Part shown: positions 563 to 64,000 of the stretch, piece by piece
Numbering within the stretch: the stretch's first letter is position 1
Layout: each line of letters opens with the position of its first letter
Origin: Eledone cirrhosa
Lineage: Eukaryota
Direction of reading: 5' to 3'
Assembly (NCBI GenBank): GCA_964016885.1
Contig: OZ024751.1
Coordinates: 47,244,001-47,308,000, forward strand
Length of the DNA: 64,000 nucleotides
Position numbers and translations under genes: made by a program
Notes under the pieces: generated by a model
The model's input: the letters and a program-made list of their open reading frames with translations, nothing else
The model's database searches: none
Told to the model about the DNA's origin: nothing

Positions 563-2168
563 TATCATCATCACCGTTTTACGTCCGTTCTTCCACGCTA
601 GCATGGGTTAGACGGGTTGTCCTGTTGTGGGCAGTGTCTGGTCGGCTGACCATGCCTTGCTCATACAGGAACTGATCTGGCTTGATTTCTACAGCTGGAT
701 GCCCTTCCTAACACCAACCTCATTTACAGTGAGTGCTGGGTGCTTTTTCGTGGCGCCTACACGTCCACTTTACAGTGTGGGCTGGGTGCTTTTTTGCCGT
801 GGCACCTCCACGACCACCTTGCGGTGGGAGGAGTGGGGGCATATTGTTTATATGCTTCAGCATGTACCCATGGGAGGTCGGGTACCCTGTATTACTGCGT
901 GACGCCAGAAGTCACGGTCGTGTGTCATTGTCTTTGAGAGGTGTAGTTGGGTAAGGTCGGCTTTTATCACCTCATCCCAAGTCATCTTGGGTCTCCCCAC
1001 TCCGCGGTTTCCATCAACTTCTAGTGCTCTGCACCTTTTTATGCAGCTGTCATCCTTCATACGCATCACATGTCCATACCAGCGTAACCGCCTCTCCTGC
1101 ACGCAGCATTTGATTCCTCTTATGCTCAGTCTCTCTCTCAATTCCTTTATGCTTTGTCGTTCACGTATATTACTGTTACACATCCATCGGAGCATGCAGG
1201 CTTCGTTTCTCTCTAATCTACGTAAGTCTTCCACCTTCAGCGCCCAGGTCTCACTACCATGCAACATCGCTGTTTGGATACACGCACCATACAGTCTGCC
1301 TTTCATTCTGAGGGAGAAGCCTTTTGCAGCTAGCAGTGGTAGTAGTTCCCTAAACTTCTTCCATCCCGTTCTTACCCTAGTTATTGTACTTTCTGAGCAC
1401 CCACCTCCGTTGCTAATTCGGTCACCTAGGTAGCAGAAGCTGTCTACTGTTTCTACAGGGCCCTCCCAGAGATTGGTGGTACTTGTTTCCTGTGGCTGTT
1501 TGCTTGCTGTTTCAGCACAGCTGCTGCATGTGAATCCTACATTCTTAATTAAGCTTCCTGAGATCCCGCTACATCTCTTGTGTACCCATTGTTTGCATTT
1601 GGGGCAGAGAATGGAGTTCCTACCTACACCTTTCCTATATACTGAGCAAGGCCATTTCCCTGAGGGGATCTGGGTTCTGTTTTCTCGTCTACATACAAGG
1701 ACCTTAGTCTTTGTCATGTTGACTTTGAGGCCCTTTCTCTCTAGTCCCTGCTTCCAGGTTTGGAATTTATTCTCTAGTTCTACCATAGATTCAGCTATGA
1801 GTGCGAGGTCATCAGCATACAGGAGTTCCCATGGGCATCCGGTCTTAAACTCCTCCGTTATTGCCTGCAGGACTATGATGAACAGGAGAGGGCTAAGAAC
1901 AGAGCCCTGGTGGACCCCAACCTGTATGCTAAATTCCTCGCTATACTCATTGCTAATCCTAACTTTGCTGACTGCTCCCCTATACATGGCTTGTACCGCT
2001 TTCACAAGCCATTCATCTACTCCTAGTTTTCTAAGAGCCCACCAGATTACCGCACGTGGAACTCTGTCAAAGGCTTTCTCAAGGTCGACAAATGCCAAGT
2101 AGAGTGGCTTACTTTTAGCTAGGTACTTTTCCTGTAATTGCCTCACAAGGAAGAGGGCATTAATAGCG
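563..2168 (-). mobile_element. 5'-truncated RTE-clade LINE (subfamily A): RT plus PHD-like finger, 3' UTR, (ATG)n tail
   Basis: Uninterrupted 429-codon ORF 857..2146 with LAFVDLEKAFDRVPR, GVHQGSVLSPLLF, YADD, a Cys/His finger (WPCSVY..LCPKCKQWVHKRC..TCSSC) and RTE-type C-terminus ([26 protein letters not shown]); 3' UTR ends GGACGTAAAACGGTGATGATG. Confidence 0.92.
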
Positions 2169-3520
2169 TCTTAATAACAAGAAAATTAGTTTTATTGTCA
2201 AATCTCTCAAAATTCTTGATTATTTTCAAAATGATTTGAAAAATATAAGCAGTGTCTTTCATTAGAAATGTGGTAACAAATGGATTAATGTTCTGTGAGC
2301 TAAAGTAAAGCCCTGTGTGTGTACCATTAACCATCATCATCATCATGAATTTTTCTGCAACTAGTGCAGCCAGTTTTTTGGGTGCCATTCTAGAAGTTAG
2401 GCAATACTTTATGTCACGGTACACTAAAATATACCTCTTCTGTTGTATTTCTAATCCAGATCATCACCAACCTAGCAATAACACTGCTAACAACTAGTAT
2501 AATATAATCTTTAAGTTTAGCCTACAATAGTGACAATTGGCAGAATTGGTAGAGCATTGGATAGGGTCGATAAAATAAAATACCAGTCAAGTACTGGGGT
2601 TGATTCAATCAACTCTGCCCTTCACCAAAATTTGCTGGCCTTGTGCCTAAATTAGCAATCACTAATTTACTGACTCAAATGATGAATGATAGTTCTTACA
2701 ATTAATTATGCATTTGTCTAAACTGAGGGAAAAAAATGAAAGAAAAAATATTGTATATACATGTAGATAAGTTGCAGGTTTTTACTAAAAAAATCAGGTG
2801 CAAAACATCTGCATGTGACTGACTTATCTACTAACCTGGTTGTTGGCCTGAAATATTCATCAATTAAACAAACATATTATAAACAAAAAAGGCAATGTGG
2901 CTTGTGTACAAGTGTGTATAATACAGTACTAATAATATATTAGGAATATTAACATATTTTCATTTGAATAATCTGTACTGTAACTCTTATTGTTACGGTA
3001 TTTCTAATGAAAGACACTACCGACAGATAGGTAGGTAGGTCAGTAGGTAGGTAGGTCAGTAGGTAGGTAGGTCAGTAGGTAATATGGATTCAGGGCCCCT
3101 TAACCCCTGAAGGAGGCGTCATAGTGAAATATGGTGTCTCTGAGGCATTTTAAAACTTGGCAGAGCTCACCTCCTCTCCAGGTTTGAATACAGCAGATTT
3201 CTTCTAGAGAAGGATAGAGAGTGGGAGAAAGGAAGTGAGAAAGAGATATAGAGGAAGAATCAGCCCCAGTATGAGACTGGTACTTTTTTTTATCAACCTT
3301 GAATGGATGAAAGCAAAGTTGACCTTGGTGGAATTTGAACTCAGAGAGCCGAAACGAATACCACAAAGCATTCTACCCGATGTTCTAATGACTATCAAAT
3401 CACTGCCCTATCTCATAACATGACAACCCATCAAACCCATGCAGTCATGGAAAATGGATGTTAAACAGTGATGATGATGATGAAATATATATTATATATA
3501 CTCTATTTTTCTTTTTTCAG

Positions 3521-16256: not shown

Positions 16257-19200
16257 CAGAGTAATATGGCTCACTACTTAACCAAATTAAATGAATATTT
16301 TAATTTTACTTAGCTTTGCCTTTCATCCTTACAGGATTGATAAAATAAAGTACCAGTAATGCACTGGGGTAGATTTAATCGACTTTCTCCTCCCCCAGAA
16401 TTGTTGGCCATGTGTCTAAATCAGAAACCATTATTTTCTTATATAATTGTTTCTATGTTTGGCACAAGGCCGGCAATTACCCAGTGCATTACTGGTACTT
16501 TATTTTATTGACCCCGTAAAATAAAGTACCGGTAATGCACATATAATGGCGGTGGATTAGCAGTATCGGTAGAGGGTCGGACGCCATGCTTTGCAGCATA
16601 GAGTTACAGCCCTTTATGATCTGAGTTCAAATCCTGCCAAGGTTAACATTGTCTTTCATCCTTACAGGGTCGATAAAATAAAGTACTAGTAATTGCACTG
16701 GGGGTAATTGCTGGCCTTGTGCCATAAAGTAGAAACCTCTATTTTCTTATATACTAATATTTAAGTTATTTTTTATTGTTATCTGTTTTGCACCCATTAG
16801 TGACAGTACTGGTTGTGTCGTACCTGCTGATCTCGATATCCTCCTCAGTTTTAATATGGCTCGTGGAAGTGTCAAAGGACTCATCAATACAGTGAAAGTG
16901 TTACAAAGTAAGCCTAAATGGAACCCCGCCACCTCCATATTGTACTCTCTTGTGCTGTCTTGTGATGTCCGTAGTGTTTCCTTTTTGTAAACCCTTTGTA
17001 GTTAATAAAGAAATCATTATCCCAGCATTTTGTTGAAAGATGGGTGAGAGAAGCAAGAATGGCCCGAGTGAATGGGCCTACTCTGAGTATATATCTGTAA
17101 ATTAAAGGTGGAAAACTGGGAGAGGGCACTTGCCTTGGTGGTCAGGGTCATTGTGGCCTTTTACTGGGCTTTCTCCACAAATGTCCCTCCGAAGTCTCCT
17201 CCCCTATTGGGGAATTTTTCATTGTTATTTTTTGTTACACCCTCTGTTTTTGTTTTTTACACGCAGAAATGCCCATTTGTACCGTCCTGTATTGTCCTGC
17301 ACTGTCCTTAATGTCTACTTTATGTAAACCCTTGTGGTTAATAAAGAAATCATTATTATAGCGTCAGACGCCATGCTTTGCAGCATGGAGTTATGGCCCT
17401 TTACGTTCTGATTTCACATCCTGCCGAGGTTAGCTTTGCCTTTCATCTTTGCGGGGTCGATAAAATAATGTACCAGTAATACACTGGGATTCATTTAATC
17501 GACATTCCCTTCCCTTCAAATTTCTGGCCTTGTGCCTAAAGTAGAAACAATTATTATTATTATTTTTAGTGTAGTTAACAATGAAATTATTATTATTGTT
17601 ATTAATATTATTATTATGGTGGATTTGGCAGAATCGGTAGAGCGTCGGACAACGTTTTGCAGCATAGAGTTACAGCCCTTTACGTTCTGAGTTCAAATCC
17701 TGCCATGGTTAACTTTGTCTTTCATCCTTACAGGGTTGATAAAATAAAGTACTAGTAATTGAACTGGGGTAATTGCTGGCCTTGTGCCACAAGTAGAATC
17801 AATTATATTTGAAATAAATGTAATTTAATTAATAAATTAAATAGAAGTTATTTAACCCTTTAGCATTTACATTACTTTATATTTACTATTGTATTTTCAT
17901 GGTAAAGGCTTTATCTCATATAATCTTGAGTCTGTGAGAGTTTGATGGTGTTATTGTTTATATTAAGAATGGTATCTTAACATCAGTGTGAGCTACTGGT
18001 TACAGCCGGTTTAAAAAAGGGGAAAGAATTGTGGCCGGATGCAGCCGGTTTAAATGCTAAAGAGTTAATTAAATAAAAATATATGTTGTGTTCTGTTTTG
18101 TTGTAGATTTTCCTGATTTGTGTTTATCATGCAGTGAACTGATGAACAAAACAATCAAATCAAAACACACAGCTTGGGAAAAACAAGGTAAGATGTGGTA
18201 ACAGAACTTAACTTTGTTGAAATTATCATCATCATTGCCATCACCACTACCACCATCACCAGCATCATCACCAATATTATCACGATCAACATCACCACCA
18301 TCACCATCATTACTGTCACCATCAACATCTCTGTTACCAGCACCACCATCACCATCAACATCCCAACCCCCACTGCTTTCGAGATCACTGCCACCACCAC
18401 CACCATCATCACCAACATCATCACCACTACCATCATCACCAACAACATCACCACTACCACCACCATCATCACCACTACCACCATCACCACCACCACCACA
18501 GTCATCATCACCCCAATCACCACTATCACCACCATAGTCATCGTCACCACCCCCACCGCCACAGTCATCATCACCACCATCACCAATAAGGATCAGCCTT
18601 TAGTGAGCAGACTTATAATTAAAATCAGTCCAACCATGACCAGACCAATCAACATTTTTCTATAATATAAGACACTACATTTGAGGGAGATTTGGTTGTT
18701 ATTTCAGCAAGCTGAGTGTCCATGTAGAGGCTCCCTCCTCCTCCTTATTGGTTTGCCTATCACACCTCATTTGTTTGCCTATCACACCTCATTGGTTTGC
18801 CTATCACACCTCATTTGTTTGCCTATTACACCTCATTTGTTTGCCTATTACACCTCATTTGTTTGCCTATTACACCTCATTGGTTTGCCTATTACACCTC
18901 ATTTGTTTGCCTATTACACCTCATTGGTTTGCCTATTACACCTCATTGGTTTGCCTATCACACCTCATTGGTTTGCCTATTACACCTCATTTGTTTGCCT
19001 ATTACACTTCATTTGTTTGCCTATTACACCTCATTGGTTTGCCTATTACACCTCATTTGTTTGCCTATTACACCTCATTTGTTTGCCTATTACACCTCAT
19101 TGGTTTGCCTATTACACCTCATTTGTTTGCCTATTACACCTCATTGGTTTGCCTATTACACCTCATTTGTTTGCCTATTACACCTCATTTGTTTGCCTAT

Positions 19201-21029
19201 TACACCTCATTGGTTTGCCTATTACACCTCATTTGTTTGCCTATTACACCTCATTGGTTTGCCTATTACACCTTATTGGTTTGCCTATTACACCTCATTT
19301 GTTTGCCTATCACACCTCATTGGTTTGCCTATTACACCTCATTGGTTTGCCTATTACACCTCATTTGTTTGCCTATTACACCTCATTGGTTTGCCTATTA
19401 CACCTCATTGGTTTGCCTATCACACCTCATTTGTTTGCCTATTACACCTCATTTGTTTGCCTATCACACCTCATTGGTTTGCCTATCACACCTCATTGGT
19501 TTGCCTATCACACCTCATTTGTTTGCCTATCACACCTCATTGGTTTGCCTATTACACCTCATTGGTTTGCCTATTACACCTCATTTGTTTGCCTATCACA
19601 CCTCATTTGTTTGCCTATCACACCTCATTTGTTTGCCTATCACACCTCATTTGTTTGCCTATTACACCTCATTTGTTTGCCTATTACACCTCACTGGTTT
19701 GTTATGTCTGTTGATGACTCTGTATTGTATTTTCCAGCCAATTCCTTCTATCTACCACTATTAGGCTGTGAAGGAGGACAGTTAGAAGACAAATCAAAGA
19801 AGAACAATGGTAGCAGCAGCAGCAACAACAACAATAACAACAGCAACAATAATAACAACAACAATACTACCAATCTACGGAATATCCAAGGTTAACCCTT
19901 TCACATTTACATAACTCTATATATTTACTATTGTATTTTTGCAGTAAAGGCTTTACCTCACATAATTATCTCACATAATATCTTACATAACATTTACATT
20001 ACTCTATATATACTATTGTTTTCGTAGTAAAGGCTTTATCTTACATATCTCACATAATATCTCGCATAACATTTACATTACTCTATATATACTATTATAT
20101 TTCTACGGTAAAGGCTTTATCTCACATAACATTTACATTACTCTATATTTACTATTATATTTCCATGGTAAAGGCTTTACCTCACATAATTATCTCACAT
20201 AATATCTCACATAATATTTACATTACTCTATATATACTATTGTATTTTTGCAGTAAAGGCTTTATCTTATATAATTATCTTACATAATATCTCACATAAC
20301 ATTTACATTACTCTATATATATTATATACTATTGTATTTTTGCAGTAAAGGCTTTATCTTATATAATTATCTTACATAATATCTCACATAACATTTACAT
20401 TACTCTATATATATTATATACTATTGTATTTTTGCAGTAAAGGCTTTATCTTATATAATTATCTTACATAATATCTCACAGAACATTTACATTACTCTAT
20501 ATATATTATATACTATTGTATTTTTGCAGTAAAGGCTTTATCTTATATAATTATCTTACATAATATCTCATAACATTTACATTACTCTATATATATTATA
20601 TACTATTGTATTTTTGCAGTAAAGGCTTTATCTTATATAATTATCTTACATAATATCGAATCAATGAGATTTTGATGTTATTTATTTTGAGAACAAACCC
20701 TTAATGTCAGTATGAGTGGCCGGTTACAGCTGGTTTGAACAGAAAGAGGTGAGAGACTTCTGGCCGGATATGTCTGGTTTAAATGCTAAAGGGTTAAGTT
20801 GTTTCTGTATTACCAATGTACATCGTAATTTATCAAAACAGCCTCCATTTCTTTTTACTCTCTTTCTCTCCTTCTCTATCATCCTCTCTCCCTCTCTCTT
20901 CCTCTATCATCCTTTCTCTCTCTCTCCTTCTCTATCATCCTCTCTCTCTCCTCATCTATCATCCTCTCTCTCACGCTCCTCTATCATTCTTTCTCTCTCT
21001 CCTCTATCATCTTTTCTCCCTGTCTCTAT

Positions 21030-21755: not shown

Positions 21756-24700
21756 AGTTTACCTCCAAGAAGGCAGGAAAAGTGCGGACCTTTTCTTCAA
21801 GGCTCCAGACTTTGTTACCTTAACAAAGTTGACGATTAAAGTAAGTCAAACCTATTTCATCATATTACCACCACCACCACCACCACTACCACCACCATCA
21901 CCACCACAACCGCCACCATCATCATCATCACCATCATCATCACCATCACCGCCATCATCATCACCATCACCACCACAACCACCACTACCACCATCGTCAT
22001 CACTGTTTATTGTCTTATTATTCCTCCTCTTCCCCTCATAATGTTTAAAATTCTCCCCCCCCCCCCCCCCCCCCCTCAACATCACCATTTCCATGTTGTC
22101 CTTCACCTTGTTTTTCTTGTTTTTATCTTCAGGTTGTGAGTGGTTCCCGTGGTTGCAGACAAGGACTGGTCTTTGTCTATGGAGATAAGTATGTAACTAA
22201 AATTATCTCCCATTTCTGTCTTCATTCTTCACTTCTTTCTTTCCTCCTTCTTAGTGGGGTTTTTTTCTTCATTCTTTCTCTTCGTGTTCTTTTTGTTTTA
22301 TTCTTTCTTTTCCTTTTTTTTGCTCTCTTCATTTCCTTCTTTCTTGCTGTATAGTATGAGTTGTGTGTGTTGTGTTGTGTTGTGTGAATTATGTGAGGGT
22401 TGTGTGTGTTCTCTGTGTTGTGCTGTGTGTTGTGTGAATTTTGTGTGTGTTGTATGTATTGTGTTGTGTGAGTGTTGTGTGTGTTGTATGTATTGTGTTG
22501 TGTGAGTGTTGTGTGTGTTGTATGTGTTGTGTGAGTTGTATGTATTGTGTTGTGTGTGTTGTATGTGTTGTGTGTGTTGTATGTATTGTGTTGTGTGAGT
22601 TTTGTGTGTGTTGTATGTATTGTGTTGTATGTGTTGTGTGTGTTGTATGTATTGTGTGAGTTTTGTGTGTGTTGTATGTATTGTATGTGTTGTGTGAGTG
22701 TTGTATGTATTGTGTTGTGTGAGTGTTGTATGTGTTGTGTGTGTTGTATATATTGTGTGAGTTTTGTGTGTGTTGTGTGTGTTGTATGTATTGTGTGAGT
22801 TTTGTGTGTGTTGTATGTATTGTATGTGTTGTGTGAGTGTTGTATGTGTTGTGCTGTGAGTGTTGTATGTGTTGTGTGTATGTTGTATGTGTTGTGTGAG
22901 TTTTGTGTGTGTTGTATGTATTGTATGTGTTGTGTGAGTGTTGTATGTATTGTGCTGTATGTGTTGTGTGAGTGTTGTATGTGTTGTGCTGTATGTGTTG
23001 TGTGAGTGTTGTGAGTGTTGTGTATGTTGTATGTGTTGTGTGAGTTTTGTGTGTTGTATTATTATTGTTATTATTTATTTCCAGAAATGATTTCTGCCAA
23101 GAGGACCATGTCACTAAATACTGTAGCTATGATGAATGGACTCAACAAGATATTCAGTCACATTTGGCGTATGTCTCACTTTATTTACCCTCGTCATTGT
23201 TGTTATTTTATGTTTATTTCTGTAGCATGTAGATTTTAACCCTCACATTACTGGGACTTTCTCCCTTTCCTCATCACATACTTTTAATTCACTTTCACAA
23301 TCTAAGCTGCTTAGAGGATTGGATTAGCAATCGTAAGGTTGTGAGTTCTATTCCTGGACTGGGTGATATGTTATGTCCTTGAGCAAGACGCTTTATTTCA
23401 TGTTGTTCATTCTGCCAGGAGGTGTGCTTGGTAGGTAATATCAGCAACTAAAAGACCAATGGAGACATTGTTTCCTTGGTCCGATTTGTTGAGTTCCACT
23501 CCACTTGATAAACGAATGAGAATCAATATAGTTTTGGATACTTTATATATATGGAGGCACATGGCTTAGTGGTTAGAGCATTGGCCTTGCAATCGAAAGG
23601 TTGTGAGTTCAATTCTCAGACTGGGTGATGTGTTGTTTCCTTGAGCAAGACACTTTATTTCACATTGCTCCAGTTTACTCAGCTGTAGAAATGAGATGAT
23701 AGGGACTGGGGTCCCTATCATTCCACTGCAAAGTGGTCGTGCAGGTGCCACGGCAGAAAAACACCCACCACTCACTGTAAATGAGGTTGGTGTTAGGAAG
23801 GGCATCCAGCTGTAGAAATCAAGCCAGCATCAGTTTCCATCCCACCCTTGCAAGCAGGGAGAAGCGGACGTAAAATGAAATGATGATGATGATATATATA
23901 TATATATATATCATCATCATCATCGTTTAACGTCTATCTTCCATGCTAGCATGGGTTTAGACGGGAATTGTCCCACTTGAGGCAAGATTGGTCGGGAGAC
24001 CATGTCTCGCTCGTATAGGACTGTCTGGCAGGTTTTCTACGGCTTTTGACGTAATGGTTAAACACTGTTGCCCAGTATACAAGAATTGCAGGGTTCAATT
24101 CCCCACAGGCATTTTTCCATCCCGAGTGGTATTTTGCTGGATTTCTTCAACTATTATTTAAAATTATCAAGTATTATTATAGTTATCTGTATTGTGGCGA
24201 CTATAACTTTACCTTTCTCTGTTTCTAGTAAGGAGTCGTCTGTCCCCTATACAGAAGATGATCCTGTGGCTGCCTTTCACTTTGAAGAATCCTGGTACGT
24301 GACTCTTTTACTTTATTAACATAGAAGAAAAAGCAAAGGGATTTTTTCTGTGTGGGTTGTTGGGATTGATTTTAGGGGATTGATAGGGATATAATTGTTT
24401 GATGTTGTTTTATCCTTTCATGACTGTTTTTCTAATGAAATACACTCTAGTTCAATTAATTAGTTAAGAATTTTCAAGGTTTTTACTAAAATCATTAATT
24501 ATTTCATTACTATGATGAGCCCTGTGTGTATATATGTATGTGTATGTATGTTTATATGTATGCACACCTATGTATGTTTATATGTATGTGTGTATATGTG
24601 TTTGTATGAACGTATGCATATGTATATAATAATAATAATATAATAATGAAATTATTGTGTACAGTGCTCAGGTGCACTACAACTCATCAAAGGTGCATGT

Positions 24701-27396
24701 ATAGTACATAGAATAATGTACAAATGTCAGGAAAATGAACAGTGTATGAGTCATGATATAATAACAATAACAATAATGAAATATTGTGTACAGTGCCCAG
24801 GTGCACCACAACTCATCAAAAAAGTGCATGTACAGTACATAGGGCAATGCACAAACATCAGTAAAATGAACAGTGCACGAGTCATGATACACACATGTGT
24901 GCATGTGTATGGAAGGGGTACATCAGGTGTAGTTTTGGCGTATTTCGGGAAGCATGAGTGTCTTAAAGGATGCAGTGTCTCGGCAGCTAACAATTGACGC
25001 AGGCAGTTTGTTCCATGCTTCAGCAACTCTGAGCGTGAAAAAATGTCTGCGAAAGTCATGGGAGCTGTGCTGTTTTCTTATATTGTAGGCATGTCCACGT
25101 GTGTTAGACACATGGAGATCAAAGAGGCGCTCAGGGTTGCAGTTGGCGAGATGGTTAAAAACTTTGTGGGTATTCACCAAGTCCATTGCCAGACGTCGGA
25201 GCTTCAATGAATCCATGCCCAGGGAAGCAAGGCGTTCAGAGTATGGTAGGTGTCTGATGGAGGGTATGCGCTTGGTTGCACGTCTCTGAACAGTTTCCAG
25301 GAGGTCAATGTTCCGAGCAAGATAGGGGTTCCAGACTGATGATGCGAATTCCAAGTGTGGTCGCACCATAGCTGTATACAGTTTTAAATAGATGGCTGGA
25401 GAGCGGCTAACAAAGGTCTTGCTGAGTGATGCCAAGACACCCTTGGCCTTCTTGACAATCTTAGAGACATGCTTTGTCCAACGCAAATCGTTGCTGACAG
25501 TAATGCCCAGGTCACGTTCACAAGAGGACTTTTTGATGTCAGTGTTGTGGAGGGAGTATGTGGACGCTGGATTTTTCCTTCCAAAATGCATGGTGGTACA
25601 CTTGTCCACAGCCAGCTTCAGTTGCCAGTCTGTGATCCATTGCTGCATTGTGTCCAGGTCTGACTGTAGGAAAGAGTTGTAAATTTCAGGATCAGTCCTT
25701 TTGATTTCAAGGTACAGCTTGATGTCATCTGCATATTTTAGTACCGTGGCATTCTGTAAGTTGGCATCTATGTCATTAATATATGCCACAAACAAAAGAA
25801 GACCAAGAACAGATCCCTGTGGTACACCAGATGACATCTCATATGGTGAAGAATGCTGTCCTAGAACCGTGACTACTTCCTTTCGGCTGAGAATGAAGGA
25901 TTTCAGCCAGTCGAAAAGATCATCCCTCACACCCTTTGCAGAGAGTTTTGCCATAAGTCTTTTGTGTGGCACAGAATTAAAAGCCTTAGCAAAGTCAAGG
26001 TAAACAACATCCACCCATGAGCCGCTGTCAGTGATCCGGGTGATGTCCTCAAGGAACTCGATAAGCTGATCACAGCATGTATGCACATATATGTAATGGT
26101 GTGTGAGTATGTGTTTGTATACACATATGCACATACGTATGTGTGCGTATAAGACAATCTAATTAGATCTTTATAATGAATGTTTAAATGAATCTGTTTG
26201 TTTCAAATATTGTTTTGTCTTCCCTCCCAGGGACGAGTTGGAAATCCCAGTTCTTTGGTACCCAGAAGGAAAGGTTAGTTGATTTGTTTGTTTGTTTATA
26301 TTTGAACTGGCCATATCCGACCAGAATTATCCAAACCGGCCATAATTGGCCACTCATACTGACATTAAGATATTCTTCTCAAAATGAATAATACCAAAAT
26401 ATCATAGATTTAATATTATGTGAGGTAAAGACTTTACCAATAAAATATAATAGTAAATATAGAGTAATGTAAATGCTAAAGGGTTAATGATAATGCCCTT
26501 GTGTTTTTGTAACGATTCAGCAGAAAATATCTGAAAGCTGGTCATATTCTTAACTAGACTGAAGAACCCTTTCTACCTTATTACAGAGTGTACTTAGTGT
26601 ATTTTATCATAGTCCCAGCACTAGAGAGATTATCATATTTTTAACTAGACTGTTGAATCCTTTCTACTTTATTACTGAGTGTATTTTATCATATCACCAG
26701 CACAGTTGTCAAGTTCTTGACCAGCGAGAAGAGTCCTTTCTACCTAATATACTGCATATGTTATGTAATGATATAATGTAATATATTTTACCAATATACC
26801 AGACTGAAGAGTCCTCTCTACTATATATAATGTATATATTATATAATATATTTTACCAGTATACCAGGCAGGGAAGTCCTCTCTACCTCATATACTGTGT
26901 ATGTTATCTAATACTTTAATGTAATATATTTTACCAGTATGTGATGGTGAAGTTTTTGGAACCTCGAAGTGATTCCAATGGGAAACTGGGTATCAAGTCC
27001 ATTCAGTTTTCTGGATTTCATAAGAAGATTGCTTTCTTGAGAATGTTACCTGTAAGTACTTCATATTTCCTCCTATTGCACTTGTATCTATGATTTGGCA
27101 TTCTTCAAATTAATTATTTAATTTTTATAGTTGGAGCCAAAATAATGATGCTCCCATTTCATTTATGTATATATATCTCTGGGTGTGTATCTGTGTGTGT
27201 GTGTATATATATATTTTTTTTTTTTTTTACAATTCCATCCCACCCGTCCCTTCAATCTATCTAATTTCTCATTCTTTCTTCTGATGAAGGACTAGCATCC
27301 GAAACATTAAGACCCTCTTCCTGCTATTTCAAGCATTAACCTAATCTATTCCTTCCATATACTGTACTGATTGTGTTGTTATTTCTGTTTACCTTT

Positions 27397-27429
<33 letters not shown>

Positions 27430-30400
27430 CACATAAGAAATGGAGAATAAGTGGTGCGACGAATAAGATTTATTAGACATATTACAATCCCACACCAATT
27501 ATATATACATATATTTACTTCATTGTATTAATTAATGAAAAAAAAACATTTTTCTGACACAAAGTCACACTTGATTATGAGTGACTCCTGAAATATATAT
27601 ACACTCACACTCACACGTATATTTGTGCATGTTTCTGTGGAATACTCAGCTGTTTATAGCCATTCATGAGATCAGTGCTCAGTATTCAACATTAAGGTAA
27701 CAGTGTGTGTGTATGTGTCTATCTGTGTGTGTGTGTGTATGTTTACCTGTGTGTCTGTGTGTGTGAGTCTATGTGAGTGTGTGGTTACTGATGTTCACTT
27801 CTATGTCCGTGATCTTCTCCAGTAAATCAAGGAATCAGTGTCCACCCCAAACTACCCTGTCTTCTTTTGTTCTCATCACTTAGCCACAACACTTGCCCAA
27901 TCTGAAGAAGGAACTGATGGATGTCGATGAAATACAAACCCTCATTCTCAACTTTTTGATAGATTTGGCACAAGTGCAGGTACTGTGTGTGTATATATAT
28001 TTATATATTTATATATTACACTTTCTCTCACCTGACAGCTGAGCTCTTGCCATTTAAACAGCTAGTTCCATAACTAGTTTTTGAAATGGCAAGAGCTCAG
28101 CTGTCGGGTCCCGACTCTTTATAATATAGTCTTACGCTACTATCCCAAGTATCAAGTACTCTGTTGAGTAATGGTCTAACCAGTTTTAAACTGGTTCTAT
28201 CCTGATTTATATATATATACATCGAGTGCTCATATTGAATTAAATACCTCTCCTTGTTCGTCATGTTTTACTAGCTCTATACGGACGTTTAAATTAAGTA
28301 AATAATTTTTTTTTTGTTTCTGTCCCTGCTCACTCTACTCTTTCTTTCTGTTTCTTCTTTAATTTCTCATTCTATTTTCTGATGAAGGACTAGTGTCCGA
28401 AACATTAAGACTTTTCCTATTATATTAAGCATGAAACTAATATATATCCTCATTGTACTTCATCTATTGTGATTTATCCATTTACTTTTCACACACACAC
28501 TTATATGTATATAAAATTGTTTTCCACAGTTCAGCACCAAAAAAGTAAACCGTATTGATGTGTTAGATGTTGATGATATTCCAGTCCAAGATATTTGGAG
28601 TCTTTTCCGTATCTATATAAAACGGTAAGCCACATGTTTATTATTCCAGCTTTGCCACTTTCATCCTCCATTATGGGGTTGATAAAATAAAGTACCAGTA
28701 ATGTATTATAGTCGGTTTATTCGTCTTCCCACCTTCCTCAAAATTGTTGACCTTGTACCTAAATCAGAAACTATTATTCAAAAGGGTGGTGGATTGGCAG
28801 TAATTGGTAGAGCGTCAGACACCATGCTTTGCAGCATAGAGTTATGTCCCTTTACATTCTGAGTTAAAATCCTGTGAGGTTAACATTGACTTTCATCCTT
28901 ATGGAGGTTGATAAAATAAAGTACCAGTAATGCACTGGGGTAATTGCTGGCCTTGTGCCAAAAGTAGAAACAATTACGCAATAGTTTCTTTATCTTCTTC
29001 CAAAGTCTGTTGATTTAAATAAAGTGTGTTTTGCTCTTGAATACTGTAGGCCCTTACTCCACCATATCCTTCCACCTGTCCCAGGGACCCTGAAAACAAT
29101 CATTGGGGGCTGCCGTTTCCCCTCTCACTAAGCCATGCCTTTAATGGAATTTAGGAGCAAGATAAAACACATTTCACAAACCCTTTTTTTTTTGACATTT
29201 TTAATGTTTCTGACAATAATTGTATTTTTTCTTTTTTTTTTTTTCCAATTTTTTTTAGGGACAACTTTGCAAAAGCTGGGTCCTTGATTCAACTCCTTCA
29301 TTGTCTTTTACCTGTGATGACATCACTGAATGAAGATCAAAAGGTTTGTTCATTTGCAGTAAACACTTCTTCAGTCTTACTCTTCTTTCTTTTTAGGAAT
29401 CATTTGTGTGTATGTGAGTACATGTGTGTATGTGTGTATGTGTGTGCGTATGTGTGTGCGTGTAGGGGGTAGAATGAGCTTGATTGTTGTTGCTGTCTGA
29501 GGAGGGGTAGAGAGAGAGAGAGAGAGAATTGAAGCCACAACTGTTGGCGGCTGTTGATAAAATAACTGTATTTTATATTGTGTATATTTTCAGGTTGCTA
29601 TTGTAGAAATGTTCCATTATTTATGCCAGACATTGGATAATCAATCTAACAATCACACTCCCATGTACAAAATGATCCAACAACTGATTTATGATGGTGA
29701 TTATTATTATTATTTCATTTATTTTGCTTTATGTTCATACGAGTTATCTCCAAGTCACAACCAATGACCTCAAGAGACAACCAGGTCTGCCATGTTCAAG
29801 AAAGAACACATACACACATACATGTATCTTTAGGTGTTTAGACCTGTGATGTATTTATATTGACAGAATCTTCCTTAGTATATGGGCAGTTCCCATTAGT
29901 ACTATCGTATATGGGCAGTTCCCTATTATTATTATTATTATTATTACTACTATTGGAGGGCGGTGGATTTACAGTATCGGTAGAGGGTCGGACACCATGC
30001 TTTGCAGTATAGAGTTACGGCCCTTTATGATCTGAGTTTAAATCCCACCGAGGTTATCTTTGCTTTTCATCCTTATAGGATCGATAAAATAAAGCACCAG
30101 TAACATATTGGGGTCAATTTAATTGACTTTCCCCTCTCCCAAAATTGCTGGCCTATATAAGAAACAATTATTAATACTATTATTAATATCAATCTTTTGC
30201 CTTTCATCCTTACGGGGTAGATAAAATAAAGTACCAGTAATGCACTGGGTAATTGTTGGCCTTGTGCCAAAAGTAGAAACAATTATTGTTATCAATACTA
30301 TTATCATTATTCTCTCTCCCTTTCATATTTGTTCAGTCATCCACTCTCACTTTCCATCACACATTCACTCCATCACACACTCACACCTCCCTTTCACTCC

Positions 30401-30598
30401 CTCTCACTCACACCTCCCATTCAGTCACTCTTTCTCACTCACTCCTTCACTCACACTCACACTCTGTGTACTCTGTTTTAAGGTGCTGCAGTGTTTTTCC
30501 CTGATAAAGAATCCCGTGGCAGTAAACTCCTTGGTTTAATGGATGATGTTGAGGTCAGTGGTACTATTTTATTGTAACTTATTAATAATAATCTCTCC

Positions 30599-30638
<40 letters not shown>

Positions 30639-33421
30639 ATTTGCCTGTCTGTCTATTTGTCTACCTATCTATTTGTCTGCTGCCTGGTGGAGTGTGTGTG
30701 TTTGCAGAGCTGCCAACCTCTAAAATCCCAAACAGGAAGTACCATGAAAAGAATGCCCCAAAACGGGGAGAAATGAGGCAAAATGGGGAGATTTTTACAT
30801 AATGAAAGCTGTACCCATTTTCACAAGAGAAGACATCTCTCATCCACCCCAAGGTGGGTGGGAGATCTTCCAGTCGGACAGGGAGAGTTGACAGGTCTGG
30901 TGTGTGTGAGGTTAAAAGATATCAACAAAACAGCACCACGTTTGAAATAATAATAATAATAATGATTTCTTTATTAGCCACACAGGGCTCACATTAAGGA
31001 AACATTAAAGAAAGCACAAGACGATATAGATACAGTGTGGGTTTTTCTTTGTGTAAAATAAAATTTATAAAAGAGACTAAGAATATAAACATTAATAATT
31101 ACAACATATATGTATATACAATTGTGTTATTTATTCACAGAAGCTAATAGAGAAGCCATCAGTCCAACTGGTCTTTCAGTCCCTTTGTCAGTTCTATACT
31201 ACAGCTGATCCCATGAGTTTGCTATATTTACCCAGTGGTAATCTAGACAAAGCCGAGGTATGTACAATGTTTAACTGTTATATATATATATATATATACT
31301 CTAGTCTTGGTGCAACTATAAAATGCACCTGGTACACTCTGTAAAGTGGCTGGTGATAGGAATTGTATCCAGCATCCAACCATAGAAAGCTAGCTAAACA
31401 AAGATTTGAGAGAACTCTCCATTTGTGTTGAAGACATGAACAGCTACCCACGTGCTGTTTCTTGTGGTATGACACACACCCAGTACACTCTGTAAACTAT
31501 GAGAACATATACTCAGAAGGTAGAAGAAGCTTTTCACTTTCTTCTTGCTAAAAAAGAGGATGTAGTGGGTTTCATTCTGGCTACTTACATCATCATCATC
31601 GTTTAATGTCCATCTTCCATGCTATCCTATCCAACCTATGCCAGCATGGAAAAGTCAACATAAAAACAAGGATGAGGATTACACATTAGGTAATTCCTGA
31701 ACTAGCTTTAACCTGTTGACTGGTGCATATATTTTACTCAGCTACAGTTGATGTGCCAGGTTTCTTTTTCAGTAAAATGATTATTTTTTTAAACAAACAT
31801 TTATTAACAACACATATCTGAATGACAAATGTCACATCAATAAACTAGTAACCCCATCTATCTTTGAAGTTATGAACTGTTGGAAACGAGTTTATAACTT
31901 TGAAGTTATGAACTGTTGGAAATGAGTTCAAACATGTTAGGATGAGTTATCTCATCCATGGCACTGGAATGCATACATGTTAGGACGAGTTATCTCATCT
32001 ACAGAACTGAAGAGGTTAAGTCTAAGTATCCATCTTGGAAATGTTGACCTTTCTCAATAAATTTTTTTCTTCTTGACCTTTCAGAATTTTGACAGCCAGA
32101 AGACGTTGGCGTTGCTGGAGAATCTGATTTCTGTGATATACCGTGACTTTTGTGATGTTGTCAACCAAAATTCCACCAATGACCAGTTATTGCCTCTTCA
32201 CAGTCTCTTTAGTTCACTACAGGCCACTGTCACCTACTGGTGTTGGCAACATTTAAATTCAAATGAAGACAACAACAAAGCTATTGCAAAACATATTTTT
32301 CTAAGATGTAAGACGACTGTTAGACCTATGTTTGTAGTTATTGTTGTGGTTGTGGTTATAATTATTGTTATAGTTATTGTTGTTGTTATAATTATTGTTG
32401 TAGTTATTGTTGTACTTATTGTTGTACTTATTGTTGTACTTACTGTTGTACTTATTGTTGTGGTTATATAATATATTATATATATATATGTACATACAAT
32501 TATATATATATATGGAGGCACTTGGCCTTGCAATTGAAAGGTTGTGAGTTCAATTCTCAGACCGGGTGATGTGTTGTTTCCTTGAGCAAGACACTTTATT
32601 TTACATTGCTCCAGTTTACTCAGCTGTAGAAATGAGATGATAGAGACAGGGGTCCATATCATTCCACTGCAAAGTGGTCGTGGAGGTGCCACGGCAAAAA
32701 AGCACCCAGCACTCACTGTAAATGAGGTTGGTGTTAGGAAGGGCATCCAGCTGTAGAAATCAAGCCAGAATCAGTTCCTGTCCCACCCTTGCAAGCAGGG
32801 AAAAGCGGACGTAAAATGAAATGATGATGAATGATGATATATGTACATACAATTATATATATATATGTACATACAATTATATATATATATGTACATACAA
32901 TTATATATATATGTATATATATATGTACATACAATTATATATATATATATATATATATGTACATACAATTATATATATATATATGTACATACAATTATAT
33001 ATATATATATATGGAGGCACATGGCTTAGTGGTTAGAGCATTGGCCTTGCAATCGAAAGGTTGTGAGTTCAATTCTCAGACCGGGTGATGTGTTGTTTCC
33101 TTGAGCAAGACACTTTATTTCACATTGCTCCAGTTTACTCAGCTGTAGAAATGAGATGATAGGACTGGGGTGCCTATCATTCCACTGCAAACTGGTCGTG
33201 GAGGTGCCATGGCAAAAAAGCACCCAGCACTCACTGTAAATGAGGTTGGTGTTAGGAAGGGCATCCAGCTGTAGAAATCAAGCCAGCATCAGTTCCCGTC
33301 CTACCCTTGCAAGCAGGGAAAAGCGGACGTAAAATGAAATGATGATGATGATGATGATGTACATACAATTATATATATATATATATATGTACATACAGTT
33401 ATATATATATATGTACATAAA

Positions 33422-61772: not shown

Positions 61773-62218
61773 GTAAGTCCTCATCAACCTCACCATTCGC
61801 CTATTCTTCATCAGTTTATGTCCACTTTCCAGGAACAGATTGGTAGGGTTTGAGTTAGTTTTTATTTAGACACCTCTCATTTTAAAGACCATGGGATTTG
61901 CACCTGGAAAATTCCTCTTCGAGGCCCTAGCCTAGCCAAGCTGTTTTTCATAGTCTATACATTTACATTAACCATATAAAATCATACACACACTCACAAC
62001 AATCTCCAGATGTTAAACTCTTATCTATATATTCATGTATCTCTCTGCCTCTCTCTCTGTCTCTCTTTCTTTCTCTCTCTCTCTCTCTCTCTCTGTGTGT
62101 GCGTAAAAAGTAAACAGAAATAAAGCAAACGACAGTACAGTGAAGAAATATATTAGTTTAACACTTGAAATAACAGGAAAAGAAGAAACGAGTCTTGATG
62201 TTTCAGACACTAGCCTTT

Positions 62219-62249
<31 letters not shown>

Positions 62250-62885: not shown

Positions 62886-64000
62886 ATCATCATCATCATC
62901 ATCATCAACGTTTAACGTCCGTGTTCCACGCTTGCATGGGTTTGGACGGGGGTAGTCCCACTTGAGGCAAGAGTGATTGTCTTGCTCGCATAGGACTGTC
63001 TGGCAGGTTTTCTACAGTTGGATGCCCTTCCTAACACCAACCACATTTACAGTGTGGGTCTGGGAGGTTTTTACCGTGTTGCCTACACGGCCACATTACA
63101 GCGTGGACTGTGTGTTTTTTTGTCGTGACACCTACACGATCTCATTTGTTTCGGCCTGGATGGCGCGGCACCAACATAACTTTACATAGAACGGGGTGGT
63201 GTGGATGGGGTGGGGGTGGTGGCGGGACGGGGTGTATTTTGTTAGAGATGCCTACTGGCAAGGCGGGTCTTCTCTGTTACTGAGTACCGCCAAAGGTCAC
63301 GGTCCAGTGACATTGTCTTGGAGAGGTGTAAGTGTGTGAGGTCGGAGTTTATCAGCTCATCCCATGTTTTTCTAGGTCTGCCTATTCCGTGGCTACCGTC
63401 TATCTTTATTGCCCTGCACTTTGTAATACAGCTATCGACTTTCATGCGCATCACGTGTCCATACCAACGCAGCCTTCTCTCGAGTAAACAACATCTGATC
63501 CCTCTTATCTCTAATTTTTTCCTTAGTTCGTTTATGCTTTGCCGTTCACGTATATTACTGTTACACATCCAGCGGAGCATGCAAGCTTCGTTCCTCTCTA
63601 GTCTGCGTATATCCTCTGCACACAATGCCCAGGTCTCACTACCATGCAACATTGCTGTTCGTATGCAGGCATCGTACAACCTGCCTTTCATTTTTAGGGA
63701 GAACCCTTTAGCAGCTAATAGTGGTATAAGCTCTCTGAACTTTTTCCAACCAGTTCTGACTCTAGCTACAGTACTTTCAGAGCACCCTCCCCCACTGCTG
63801 ATTTTATCGCCCAGGTAACGGAAGCTGTCCACTATTTCTATAGAACCCTCTGCGCAATTGAAAGAGCTAGTATTTTGTGGGCACTTGCTGCTACTTATTG
63901 CACCAGAACACCGGCCACATGTAAAGTCTATGTTCTTAGTTAGCTTACCTGTGATCCCACTACATCTTTTATGCACCCATACTTTGCATTTAGGACATAA
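62886..64000 (-). mobile_element. RTE-clade LINE (subfamily B), 3' part; continues beyond window
   Basis: ORF 63242..63976 paralogous to the 857..2146 ORF ([34 protein letters not shown]); 3' UTR and (ATG)n tail. Confidence 0.92.

What the first reader, a model, noticed from the sequence alone, without database searches (positions are those of the whole stretch)
27262..28490. Two sense-strand minimal hammerhead-ribozyme-like motifs bracket a ZZEF1 exon
Seen: a roughly 140-bp direct repeat at about 27262-27400 and 28360-28490. Each copy has the hammerhead core CUGAUGA, a short stem II (GGA/UCC; GGAC/GUCC), GAAAC, then a 4-bp stem I (UCUU or UUUU with AAGA). They lie 1.1 kb apart on the pre-mRNA strand, one each side of exon w24. 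Established: minimal type I hammerheads with a loopless palindromic stem III (GAAAC-GUH) mark Penelope-like element termini and metazoan retrozymes, and they cleave as dimers. Inference: these are Penelope/retrozyme relics. Both read GAAAC-AUU instead of GAAAC-GUU, consistent with CpG decay or selection against self-cleavage inside a host pre-mRNA. An active pair could dimerise and cut either side of the exon.
Basis: partly seen in the sequence, partly recalled or inferred. Interest (0 to 1): 0.72.

Follow-up and report, generated by a model that had tools for sequence, protein, structure and literature searches.

The report
Decayed Penelope hammerheads around ZZEF1 exon
These are the cut-short tails of two separate insertions of very common Penelope-like jumping genes in an octopus-type genome; they carry the known miniature self-cutting RNA motif, but both are mutated where the two would have to pair, so they likely do not cut the host gene and likely flank the exon by chance.

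Summary
Two minimal hammerhead motifs lie 1,098 nt apart, sense to ZZEF1, around a 96-nt exon. They are not one element or a retrozyme. They are 5'-truncated 3' ends of two Penelope-like retrotransposon (PLE) families of different age. Longer copies lead into an RT + GIY-YIG ORF, and some have the tail on both sides (pseudo-LTRs). The genome holds 13,008 intact cores, with covarying stems across families. This is the PLE min-HHR of Cervera and De la Pena 2014. Both copies carry CpA in the helix III palindrome, so the native pair is predicted not to form the dimer. The change looks like regional CpG decay: 14 of 16 scored CpGs are decayed in four ZZEF1 copies, and both antisense copies carry the same change. 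Genome-wide this CpG is the least decayed of three. A weak, non-significant trend runs the other way (intact cores in 1 of 8 sense versus 4 of 6 antisense kinase-intron copies, p=0.09). About 10-15 such tight brackets are expected per genome by chance. No RNA data were available. The scan has noted the same kind of thing in other genomes. Verdict: ordinary.

The parts
27221..27400 (+). Copy 1: 5'-truncated 3' tail (pseudo-LTR end) of PLE family A, younger; followed by (TA)n to about 27429
   Evidence: The other 39 of the 40 scored genomic matches are 95-97% identical; 3,566 candidates. Fixed 3' end, variable 5' ends. Non-CpG divergence from the family majority 2.8%.
27277..27312 (+). Minimal type I hammerhead, copy 1: stem I 27277-80/27309-12, CUGAUGA 27281-87, bulged A 27288, stem II 27289-91/27298-300, GAAA 27301-04, helix III half C-A-U 27305-07 (family C-G-U), predicted cleavage site after U27308
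   Evidence: Sequence; numbering after PMC4209133; fold test.
27884..27979 (+). ZZEF1 coding exon, 96 nt, phase 0/0
   Evidence: tblastn of P0121 residues 640-671, 81%; AG/GT boundaries; cluster named ZZEF1.
28305..28492 (+). Copy 2: 5'-truncated 3' tail of PLE family B, older; followed by (CA)n/(TA)n and ending about 37 nt before the next 3' splice site
   Evidence: Best relatives 85-92% identical, 2,762 candidates; family alignment, and EN-domain match upstream in 1 of 30 loci, L119.
28375..28410 (+). Minimal type I hammerhead, copy 2: stem I 28375-78/28407-10 (one U-G), core 28379-85, bulged A 28386, stem II 28387-90/28395-98, GAAA 28399-402, helix III half C-A-U 28403-05
   Evidence: Sequence; fold test.
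62103..62220 (-). Third, antisense, more decayed tail copy in a later ZZEF1 intron; same CpA in helix III (internal control)
   Evidence: blastn; lies between exons at about 61850 and 67445; CpG states.

Best explanation
The two motifs are the truncated 3' tails of two different high-copy Penelope-like retrotransposon families, likely inserted independently into microsatellites of neighbouring ZZEF1 introns, and they are predicted to be inert because both have lost the CpG of the helix III palindrome, likely through CpG decay in a methylated gene body. In a full element the tail lies on both sides of the RT + GIY-YIG ORF (shown). There two ACGU halves would pair into a dimeric hammerhead and process the element's own RNA (proposed in PMC4209133, low activity in vitro, not tested here). 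Target-primed reverse transcription from the 3' end with early termination would leave thousands of short tails like these (inferred from the fixed 3' and variable 5' ends). The bracket around the exon is likely chance.
For: Linkage: walking upstream from family A reaches a GIY-YIG endonuclease about 500 nt before the motif and an RT before that. 23 of 30 loci chosen by the endonuclease alone carry the tail downstream on the same strand (one is the query's own locus). 3 of 11 longer stretches have a second upstream copy, e.g. L092 with tail - 625-aa frame - tail, 3,455 nt apart. Pfam RVT_1 E 6e-4 and GIY-YIG E 0.013, both below cut-off; 474 relatives at E<=0.001, many of the 120 listed with RVT_1 and some with GIY-YIG domains. 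Independence: the copies are 76.5% alike, while copy 1 has 95-97% relatives and copy 2 only 85-92%. Abundance: 13,008 intact cores; 15 copies in 1.0 Mb around kinase exons; 5 of 115 loci have an unrelated same-strand neighbour; 10-15 brackets this tight are expected if the genome has about 250,000 exons (assumed). CpG decay: ZZEF1 body CpG o/e 0.375 against 0.90 at endonuclease-selected loci. 14 of 16 scored CpGs are decayed in the four ZZEF1 copies, and 2 of 2 antisense copies carry the same CpA. In 73 copies not selected on the motif, decay is 19 of 39 sites at o/e<0.5 and 15 of 144 at o/e>=0.75 (rho -0.33, p 0.006). Genome-wide the helix III CpG is decayed in 506 of 3,573 (14%), against 654 of 3,067 (21%) for the neutral loop CpG and 850 of 3,917 (22%) for C11.1-G12. 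Octopus methylation sits on gene bodies (PMC9476566, passages). Inertness: helix III keeps 2 of 4 pairs; dimer fold +4.4 against -9.9 kcal/mol.
Against: In kinase-gene stretches, intact cores were 1 of 8 sense and 4 of 6 scorable antisense copies (one cut-off copy dropped; Fisher p=0.09; with the non-discovery ZZEF1 copies 1 of 9 vs 5 of 9, p=0.13). That is the direction selection would give. Only 218 of 3,573 otherwise perfect 33-mers carry this CpA, and in motif-unselected low-CpG loci the site is decayed in only 2 of 10 copies, so two of two is above the family average. Methylation is inferred from CpG depletion, not measured. Energies come from a secondary-structure model that ignores tertiary contacts and proteins. 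Flank stretches up to 15 kb from a kinase exon were assumed intronic.
Confidence: 0.86

Rival explanations
1. Same origin, but the helix III changes were favoured by selection: two intact sense copies 1.1 kb apart would have dimerised and cut the ZZEF1 pre-mRNA, so only alleles with broken palindromes were fixed.
For: Both copies keep the catalytic core and C11.1-G12 but lose the pairing site. Intact cores were 1 of 8 sense vs 4 of 6 antisense in kinase stretches, p=0.09. This CpA is rare genome-wide, 218 of 3,573.
Against: Both antisense ZZEF1 copies carry the same CpA. Neutral CpGs in the same copies are as decayed (14 of 16). The site is the least decayed of three genome-wide. With host strand inferred from base skew (73% accurate), low-CpG loci give intact 6 sense: 8 antisense and broken 15: 19, p=1.0. 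Sense copies are not depleted, 8 vs 7. Copy 2 is much older, so an intact pair may never have coexisted. Even tandem min-HHRs cleave weakly in vitro (PMC4209133).
Confidence: 0.1
2. The pair is a working or co-opted dimeric ribozyme that cuts on both sides of the 96-nt in-frame exon and drives skipping, transcript decay or circle formation.
For: Geometry only: same strand, 1.1 kb apart, compatible stem I strands, in-frame exon.
Against: Two C-A mismatches in a 4-bp helix III and an unfavourable dimer fold. No sign of constraint (copy 2 is 85-92% to its relatives, with CpGs decayed). The exon is present in the octopus ZZEF1 protein P0121.
Confidence: 0.02
3. The two copies are units of a retrozyme, or the two pseudo-LTRs of one element that captured or surrounds the exon.
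For: Direct orientation and a shared hammerhead.
Against: The copies belong to different families (76.5% alike). The sequence between them is host exon, intron and unrelated repeats, with no PLE ORF. Retrozymes are 150-450-bp tandem repeats with canonical type I motifs (PMC7229834, passages).
Confidence: 0.02

Closest known systems
Minimal hammerheads (min-HHR) in pseudo-LTRs of metazoan Penelope-like elements (Cervera and De la Pena 2014, PMC4209133; parts 1-2 of 4 read: abstract, results, discussion, start of methods)
   Same: Type I order, unpaired nucleotide between 9 and 10.1, G10.1-C11.1 pair, loopless palindromic 15.2-16.2 in the family, short helix I, thousands of mostly solitary copies from truncated PLEs, covarying families.
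   Different: Helix II is 4 bp (7-8 bp in Schistosoma). The host is a cephalopod, which my searches did not find described for canonical PLE min-HHRs. These two copies have lost the palindrome.
C-terminal-EN PLEs of the Neptune/Nematis type (Craig et al. 2021, PMC8557442; passages read)
   Same: [quoted passage not shown]
   Different: Clade not placed on a tree here. All parent copies read were broken or truncated.
Metazoan non-LTR retrozymes (Cervera and de la Pena 2020, PMC7229834; passages read)
   Same: Type I hammerheads, dispersed in animal genomes.
   Different: No tandem units, minimal not canonical motif, physically part of an ORF-bearing element.
[quoted passage not shown]
   Same: Hammerhead sense within an intron.
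   Different: Those are few and conserved; these are decaying members of families with thousands of copies.

Membership tests
PLE minimal hammerhead | CUGANGA and GAAA core boxes in type I order | tested here: met
PLE minimal hammerhead | Unpaired nucleotide between 9 and 10.1; G10.1-C11.1 pair | tested here: met
   A at 27288/28386; G-C in 26 of 26 distinct rows (fixed by the search pattern in 24 of them, so partly circular).
PLE minimal hammerhead | Covarying helices I and II across families | tested here: met
   (31 rows, 26 distinct): stem II A-U 17 / G-C 9 / none broken; inner stem I pairs U-A 14 / C-G 10 and U-A 15 / A-U 6; outer two stem I pairs hold in only about half the rows. The changes reflect a few family splits, not many independent events.
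PLE minimal hammerhead | Palindromic 15.2-16.2 (loopless helix III) | tested here: not met
   Met by the family (3,067 CG vs 218 CA and 288 TG), not met by either window copy. They are decayed members.
PLE minimal hammerhead | Self-cleavage as a dimer | not testable with these tools
   Only a folding estimate.
EN+ Penelope-like element | Single ORF with RT and C-terminal GIY-YIG linked to the tail | tested here: met
   Family A. Family B: endonuclease match upstream in 1 of 30 loci; RT not shown.
EN+ Penelope-like element | Pseudo-LTRs (partial tandem) flanking the ORF | tested here: met
   L061, L092, L098: 3 of 11 long stretches.
Neptune/Nematis-type PLE | CX2-5CxxC linker and CCHH in the endonuclease | tested here: met
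   Read in the L092 and L041 translations; definition from PMC8557442.
Neptune clade proper | Placement in the RT phylogeny | not tested
Metazoan non-LTR retrozyme | Tandem 150-450-bp non-coding units with canonical type I HHR | tested here: not met
   Solitary truncated tails of ORF-bearing elements.
Metazoan non-LTR retrozyme | Expressed as circular RNA | not testable with these tools
   No RNA holder listed.

The most novel reading that the evidence does not exclude
Minimal hammerheads left by independent PLE insertions can pair across families and cut host pre-mRNA, so intact sense-strand copies, above all close pairs around exons, are purged or inactivated by selection. This locus would be a scar of that process, and the 13,008 intact cores of this genome would give the first population-scale evidence that PLE min-HHRs cleave in vivo.
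Probability: 0.1. Interest if true: 0.6.

Novelty: new member of a known kind. Interest (0 to 1): 0.15.

Why it matters
The locus itself matters little: it adds octopus PLE families to a described class. What has some value is the statistical handle. Whether PLE minimal hammerheads cleave in vivo is open (PMC4209133 found low activity in vitro). A genome with 13,008 intact cores in several covarying families allows a sense-versus-antisense intronic test once gene annotation is at hand. If intact sense pairs are depleted, transposon ribozymes would be an unrecognised source of damage to transcripts.

Tried and rejected
Rfam scan of 24000-32000 to E 10: no hammerhead family. RNA evidence: no RNA holder listed. 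The three runs laid were contigs of one sample that cover intron and exon alike, and they say nothing on splicing or cleavage. A word-index protein search with one ZZEF1 exon found nothing because of the length limit; the HMMER search did. Strand inference from base skew is only 73% accurate on 3 kb and shows no effect; it is weak evidence either way. Rejected: retrozyme, single element around the exon, Naiad (endonuclease is C-terminal and the HHR canonical). Literature searches found no paper on cephalopod PLE min-HHRs or on selection against intronic sense min-HHRs. The library lacks most subscription papers, and I did not open any supplements, which may list mollusc PLE motifs.
Full report
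Observation. The two motifs are at 27281-27304 and 28379-28402, 1,098 nt apart on the + strand. They sit inside a repeat that is 92% identical over 52 nt and 76.5% over 162 columns. Each has a 4-bp stem I, CUGAUGA, an unpaired A, stem II (3 bp in copy 1, 4 bp in copy 2), GAAA, then C-A-U-U. The bare core pattern alone is not above chance in the window (8 against 4.0 +/- 2.1), and Rfam has no matching hammerhead. The host is ZZEF1. An exon query found P0121, whose cluster is named ZZEF1 of Octopus bimaculoides and O. sinensis. Its exons map to the + strand from 6.3 kb to beyond the window end, and Pfam finds a weak EF-hand match and two ZZ matches. The bracketed exon is 27884-27979, 96 nt, phase 0/0.

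What the repeat is. Copy 1 has 3,566 genomic candidates, and the 39 other scored matches are 95-97% identical. The family has a fixed 3' end followed by (TA)n or (CA)n and ragged 5' ends. Two steps upstream lead into a GIY-YIG endonuclease ending about 500 nt before the motif, preceded by an RT. Of 30 loci picked by the endonuclease alone, 23 carry the tail downstream on the same strand (one is the query's own locus). Of 11 longer stretches, 3 have a second upstream tail. L092 shows tail, a 625-aa frame, tail, 3,455 nt apart. The frame gives weak RVT_1 and GIY-YIG matches below cut-off, and 474 relatives. It has the CX2-5CxxC linker and CCHH arrangement that PMC8557442 gives for Neptune/Nematis (passages). 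No tree was built. Copy 2 belongs to an older sister family: best relatives are 85-92% identical, with an endonuclease match upstream in 1 of 30 loci. The two copies are therefore independent insertions, not the ends of one element.

The ribozyme motif. A degenerate core pattern has 13,008 matches genome-wide against 1 in the reversed control, in at least three families. On 31 aligned rows (29 of the first 30 matches, one dropped for length, plus the two window copies), stem II covaries A-U 17 / G-C 9 with none broken. The inner two stem I pairs also covary, while the outer two hold in about half the rows. These counts reflect a few family splits. The features match the PLE min-HHR of PMC4209133 (parts 1-2 of 4 read): bulged base before G10.1, G10.1-C11.1, palindromic 15.2-16.2, mostly solitary copies, no monomer activity and low dimer activity in vitro.

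Can this pair cut? With ACAU in both, helix III keeps 2 of 4 pairs. The dimeric fold scores +4.4 kcal/mol, against -9.9 for two natural intact copies. This is a model estimate, but it points to an inert pair.

Decay or selection? Exact genome-wide counts of a 33-nt pattern give 3,067 with CG, 218 with CA and 288 with TG at helix III (14% decayed). The neutral loop CpG is decayed in 654 of 3,067 (21%) and C11.1-G12 in 850 of 3,917 (22%). Decay is correlated within copies (odds ratio about 1.5) and with low local CpG: 19 of 39 sites at o/e<0.5 and 15 of 144 at o/e>=0.75 in 73 copies not selected on the motif. ZZEF1 has o/e 0.375, like kinase gene stretches (median 0.37) and unlike endonuclease-selected loci (0.90). 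That fits gene-body methylation as reported for octopus (PMC9476566, passages). The four scorable ZZEF1 copies have 14 of 16 CpGs decayed, and both antisense ones carry the same CpA.

Results against this reading. The CpA is uncommon in the family as a whole, and the site is decayed in only 2 of 10 motif-unselected low-CpG copies. In 1.0 Mb around kinase exons (100 stretches, assumed intronic) there were 8 sense and 7 antisense copies. Intact cores were 1 of 8 and 4 of 6 scorable (one cut by a stretch end), Fisher p=0.09. The one intact sense core lies 1.6 kb upstream of a tyrosine kinase exon. A second test on 48 copies in low-CpG loci, with host strand inferred at 73% accuracy, gave intact 6 sense: 8 antisense and broken 15: 19, p=1.0. 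Selection is not needed, not shown, and not excluded.

Is the bracket chance? Densities were 15 copies per Mb in kinase stretches and 9 in 264 kb around the window. Five of 115 loci had an unrelated same-strand neighbour. At such densities, introns of these sizes both hold a sense copy with probability 4-6e-5 per exon, or 10-15 cases per genome if it has about 250,000 exons (an assumed figure). The case is rare per window and expected per genome.

Comparison and verdict. It works like, and is a decayed member of, the PLE pseudo-LTR minimal hammerheads. It is not a retrozyme (PMC7229834, passages) and not a conserved intronic ribozyme. No RNA run was listed, so splicing and cleavage in vivo are untested. 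Searches found no description of cephalopod PLE min-HHRs; PMC6962438 only counts 235 Rfam hammerheads in giant squid (passage). Earlier notes of this scan report the same kind of finding in other genomes; they are unchecked and were not used as support. New member of a known kind, interest 0.15.

Noticed in passing
window 28030-28220: A roughly 200-nt (TA)n-flanked dispersed repeat that begins with a long hairpin (38-nt arms, 89% complementary) 50 nt after the exon's donor; 17-22 relatives in the fetched loci, some with perfect arms. A possible double-stranded RNA editing substrate; family not identified.
   Followed up: partly
genome-wide counts: The helix III CpG is less decayed (14%) than the loop CpG (21%) and C11.1-G12 (22%); sequence context or variation among source elements could explain it.
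   Followed up: partly
L092 about 5010-4980 and 1545-1520 (minus strand): A pyrimidine run followed by CAG-GT about 180 nt upstream of the motif, close to where the upstream pLTR copy begins; looks like a splice site, as expected for the intron of PLE pLTRs.
   Followed up: no
L132, window coordinate about 67120-67225, minus strand: A third PLE tail family (stem II GGGC/GCCC, GUC triplet) with an intact core, antisense in a ZZEF1 intron (criteria).
   Followed up: partly
window 27430-27490 and 28240-28305: Fragments of two further dispersed repeats; the second also occurs in two kinase-gene stretches.
   Followed up: no
window 28664-28980 and 29976-30285: Copies of a very common short dispersed repeat in the following introns (families D4, D5, D9, D10).
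   Followed up: no
window 860-2170, 24926-26158, 63245-64000 (minus strand): LINE-like open frames: RVT_1 in the first two, PHD finger in the first and third.
   Followed up: no
window 18666-19892: Intronic tandem array that reads as a 409-codon open frame of about 22-residue repeats.
   Followed up: no
window 26533-26940: Short diverged tandem copies of 63-78 nt just upstream of the preceding exon (D3, D11).
   Followed up: no
G000 C1:79372018/79372536 and C1:149488494/149488677: Intact cores in close inverted pairs, as expected for PLE inverted insertions.
   Followed up: no
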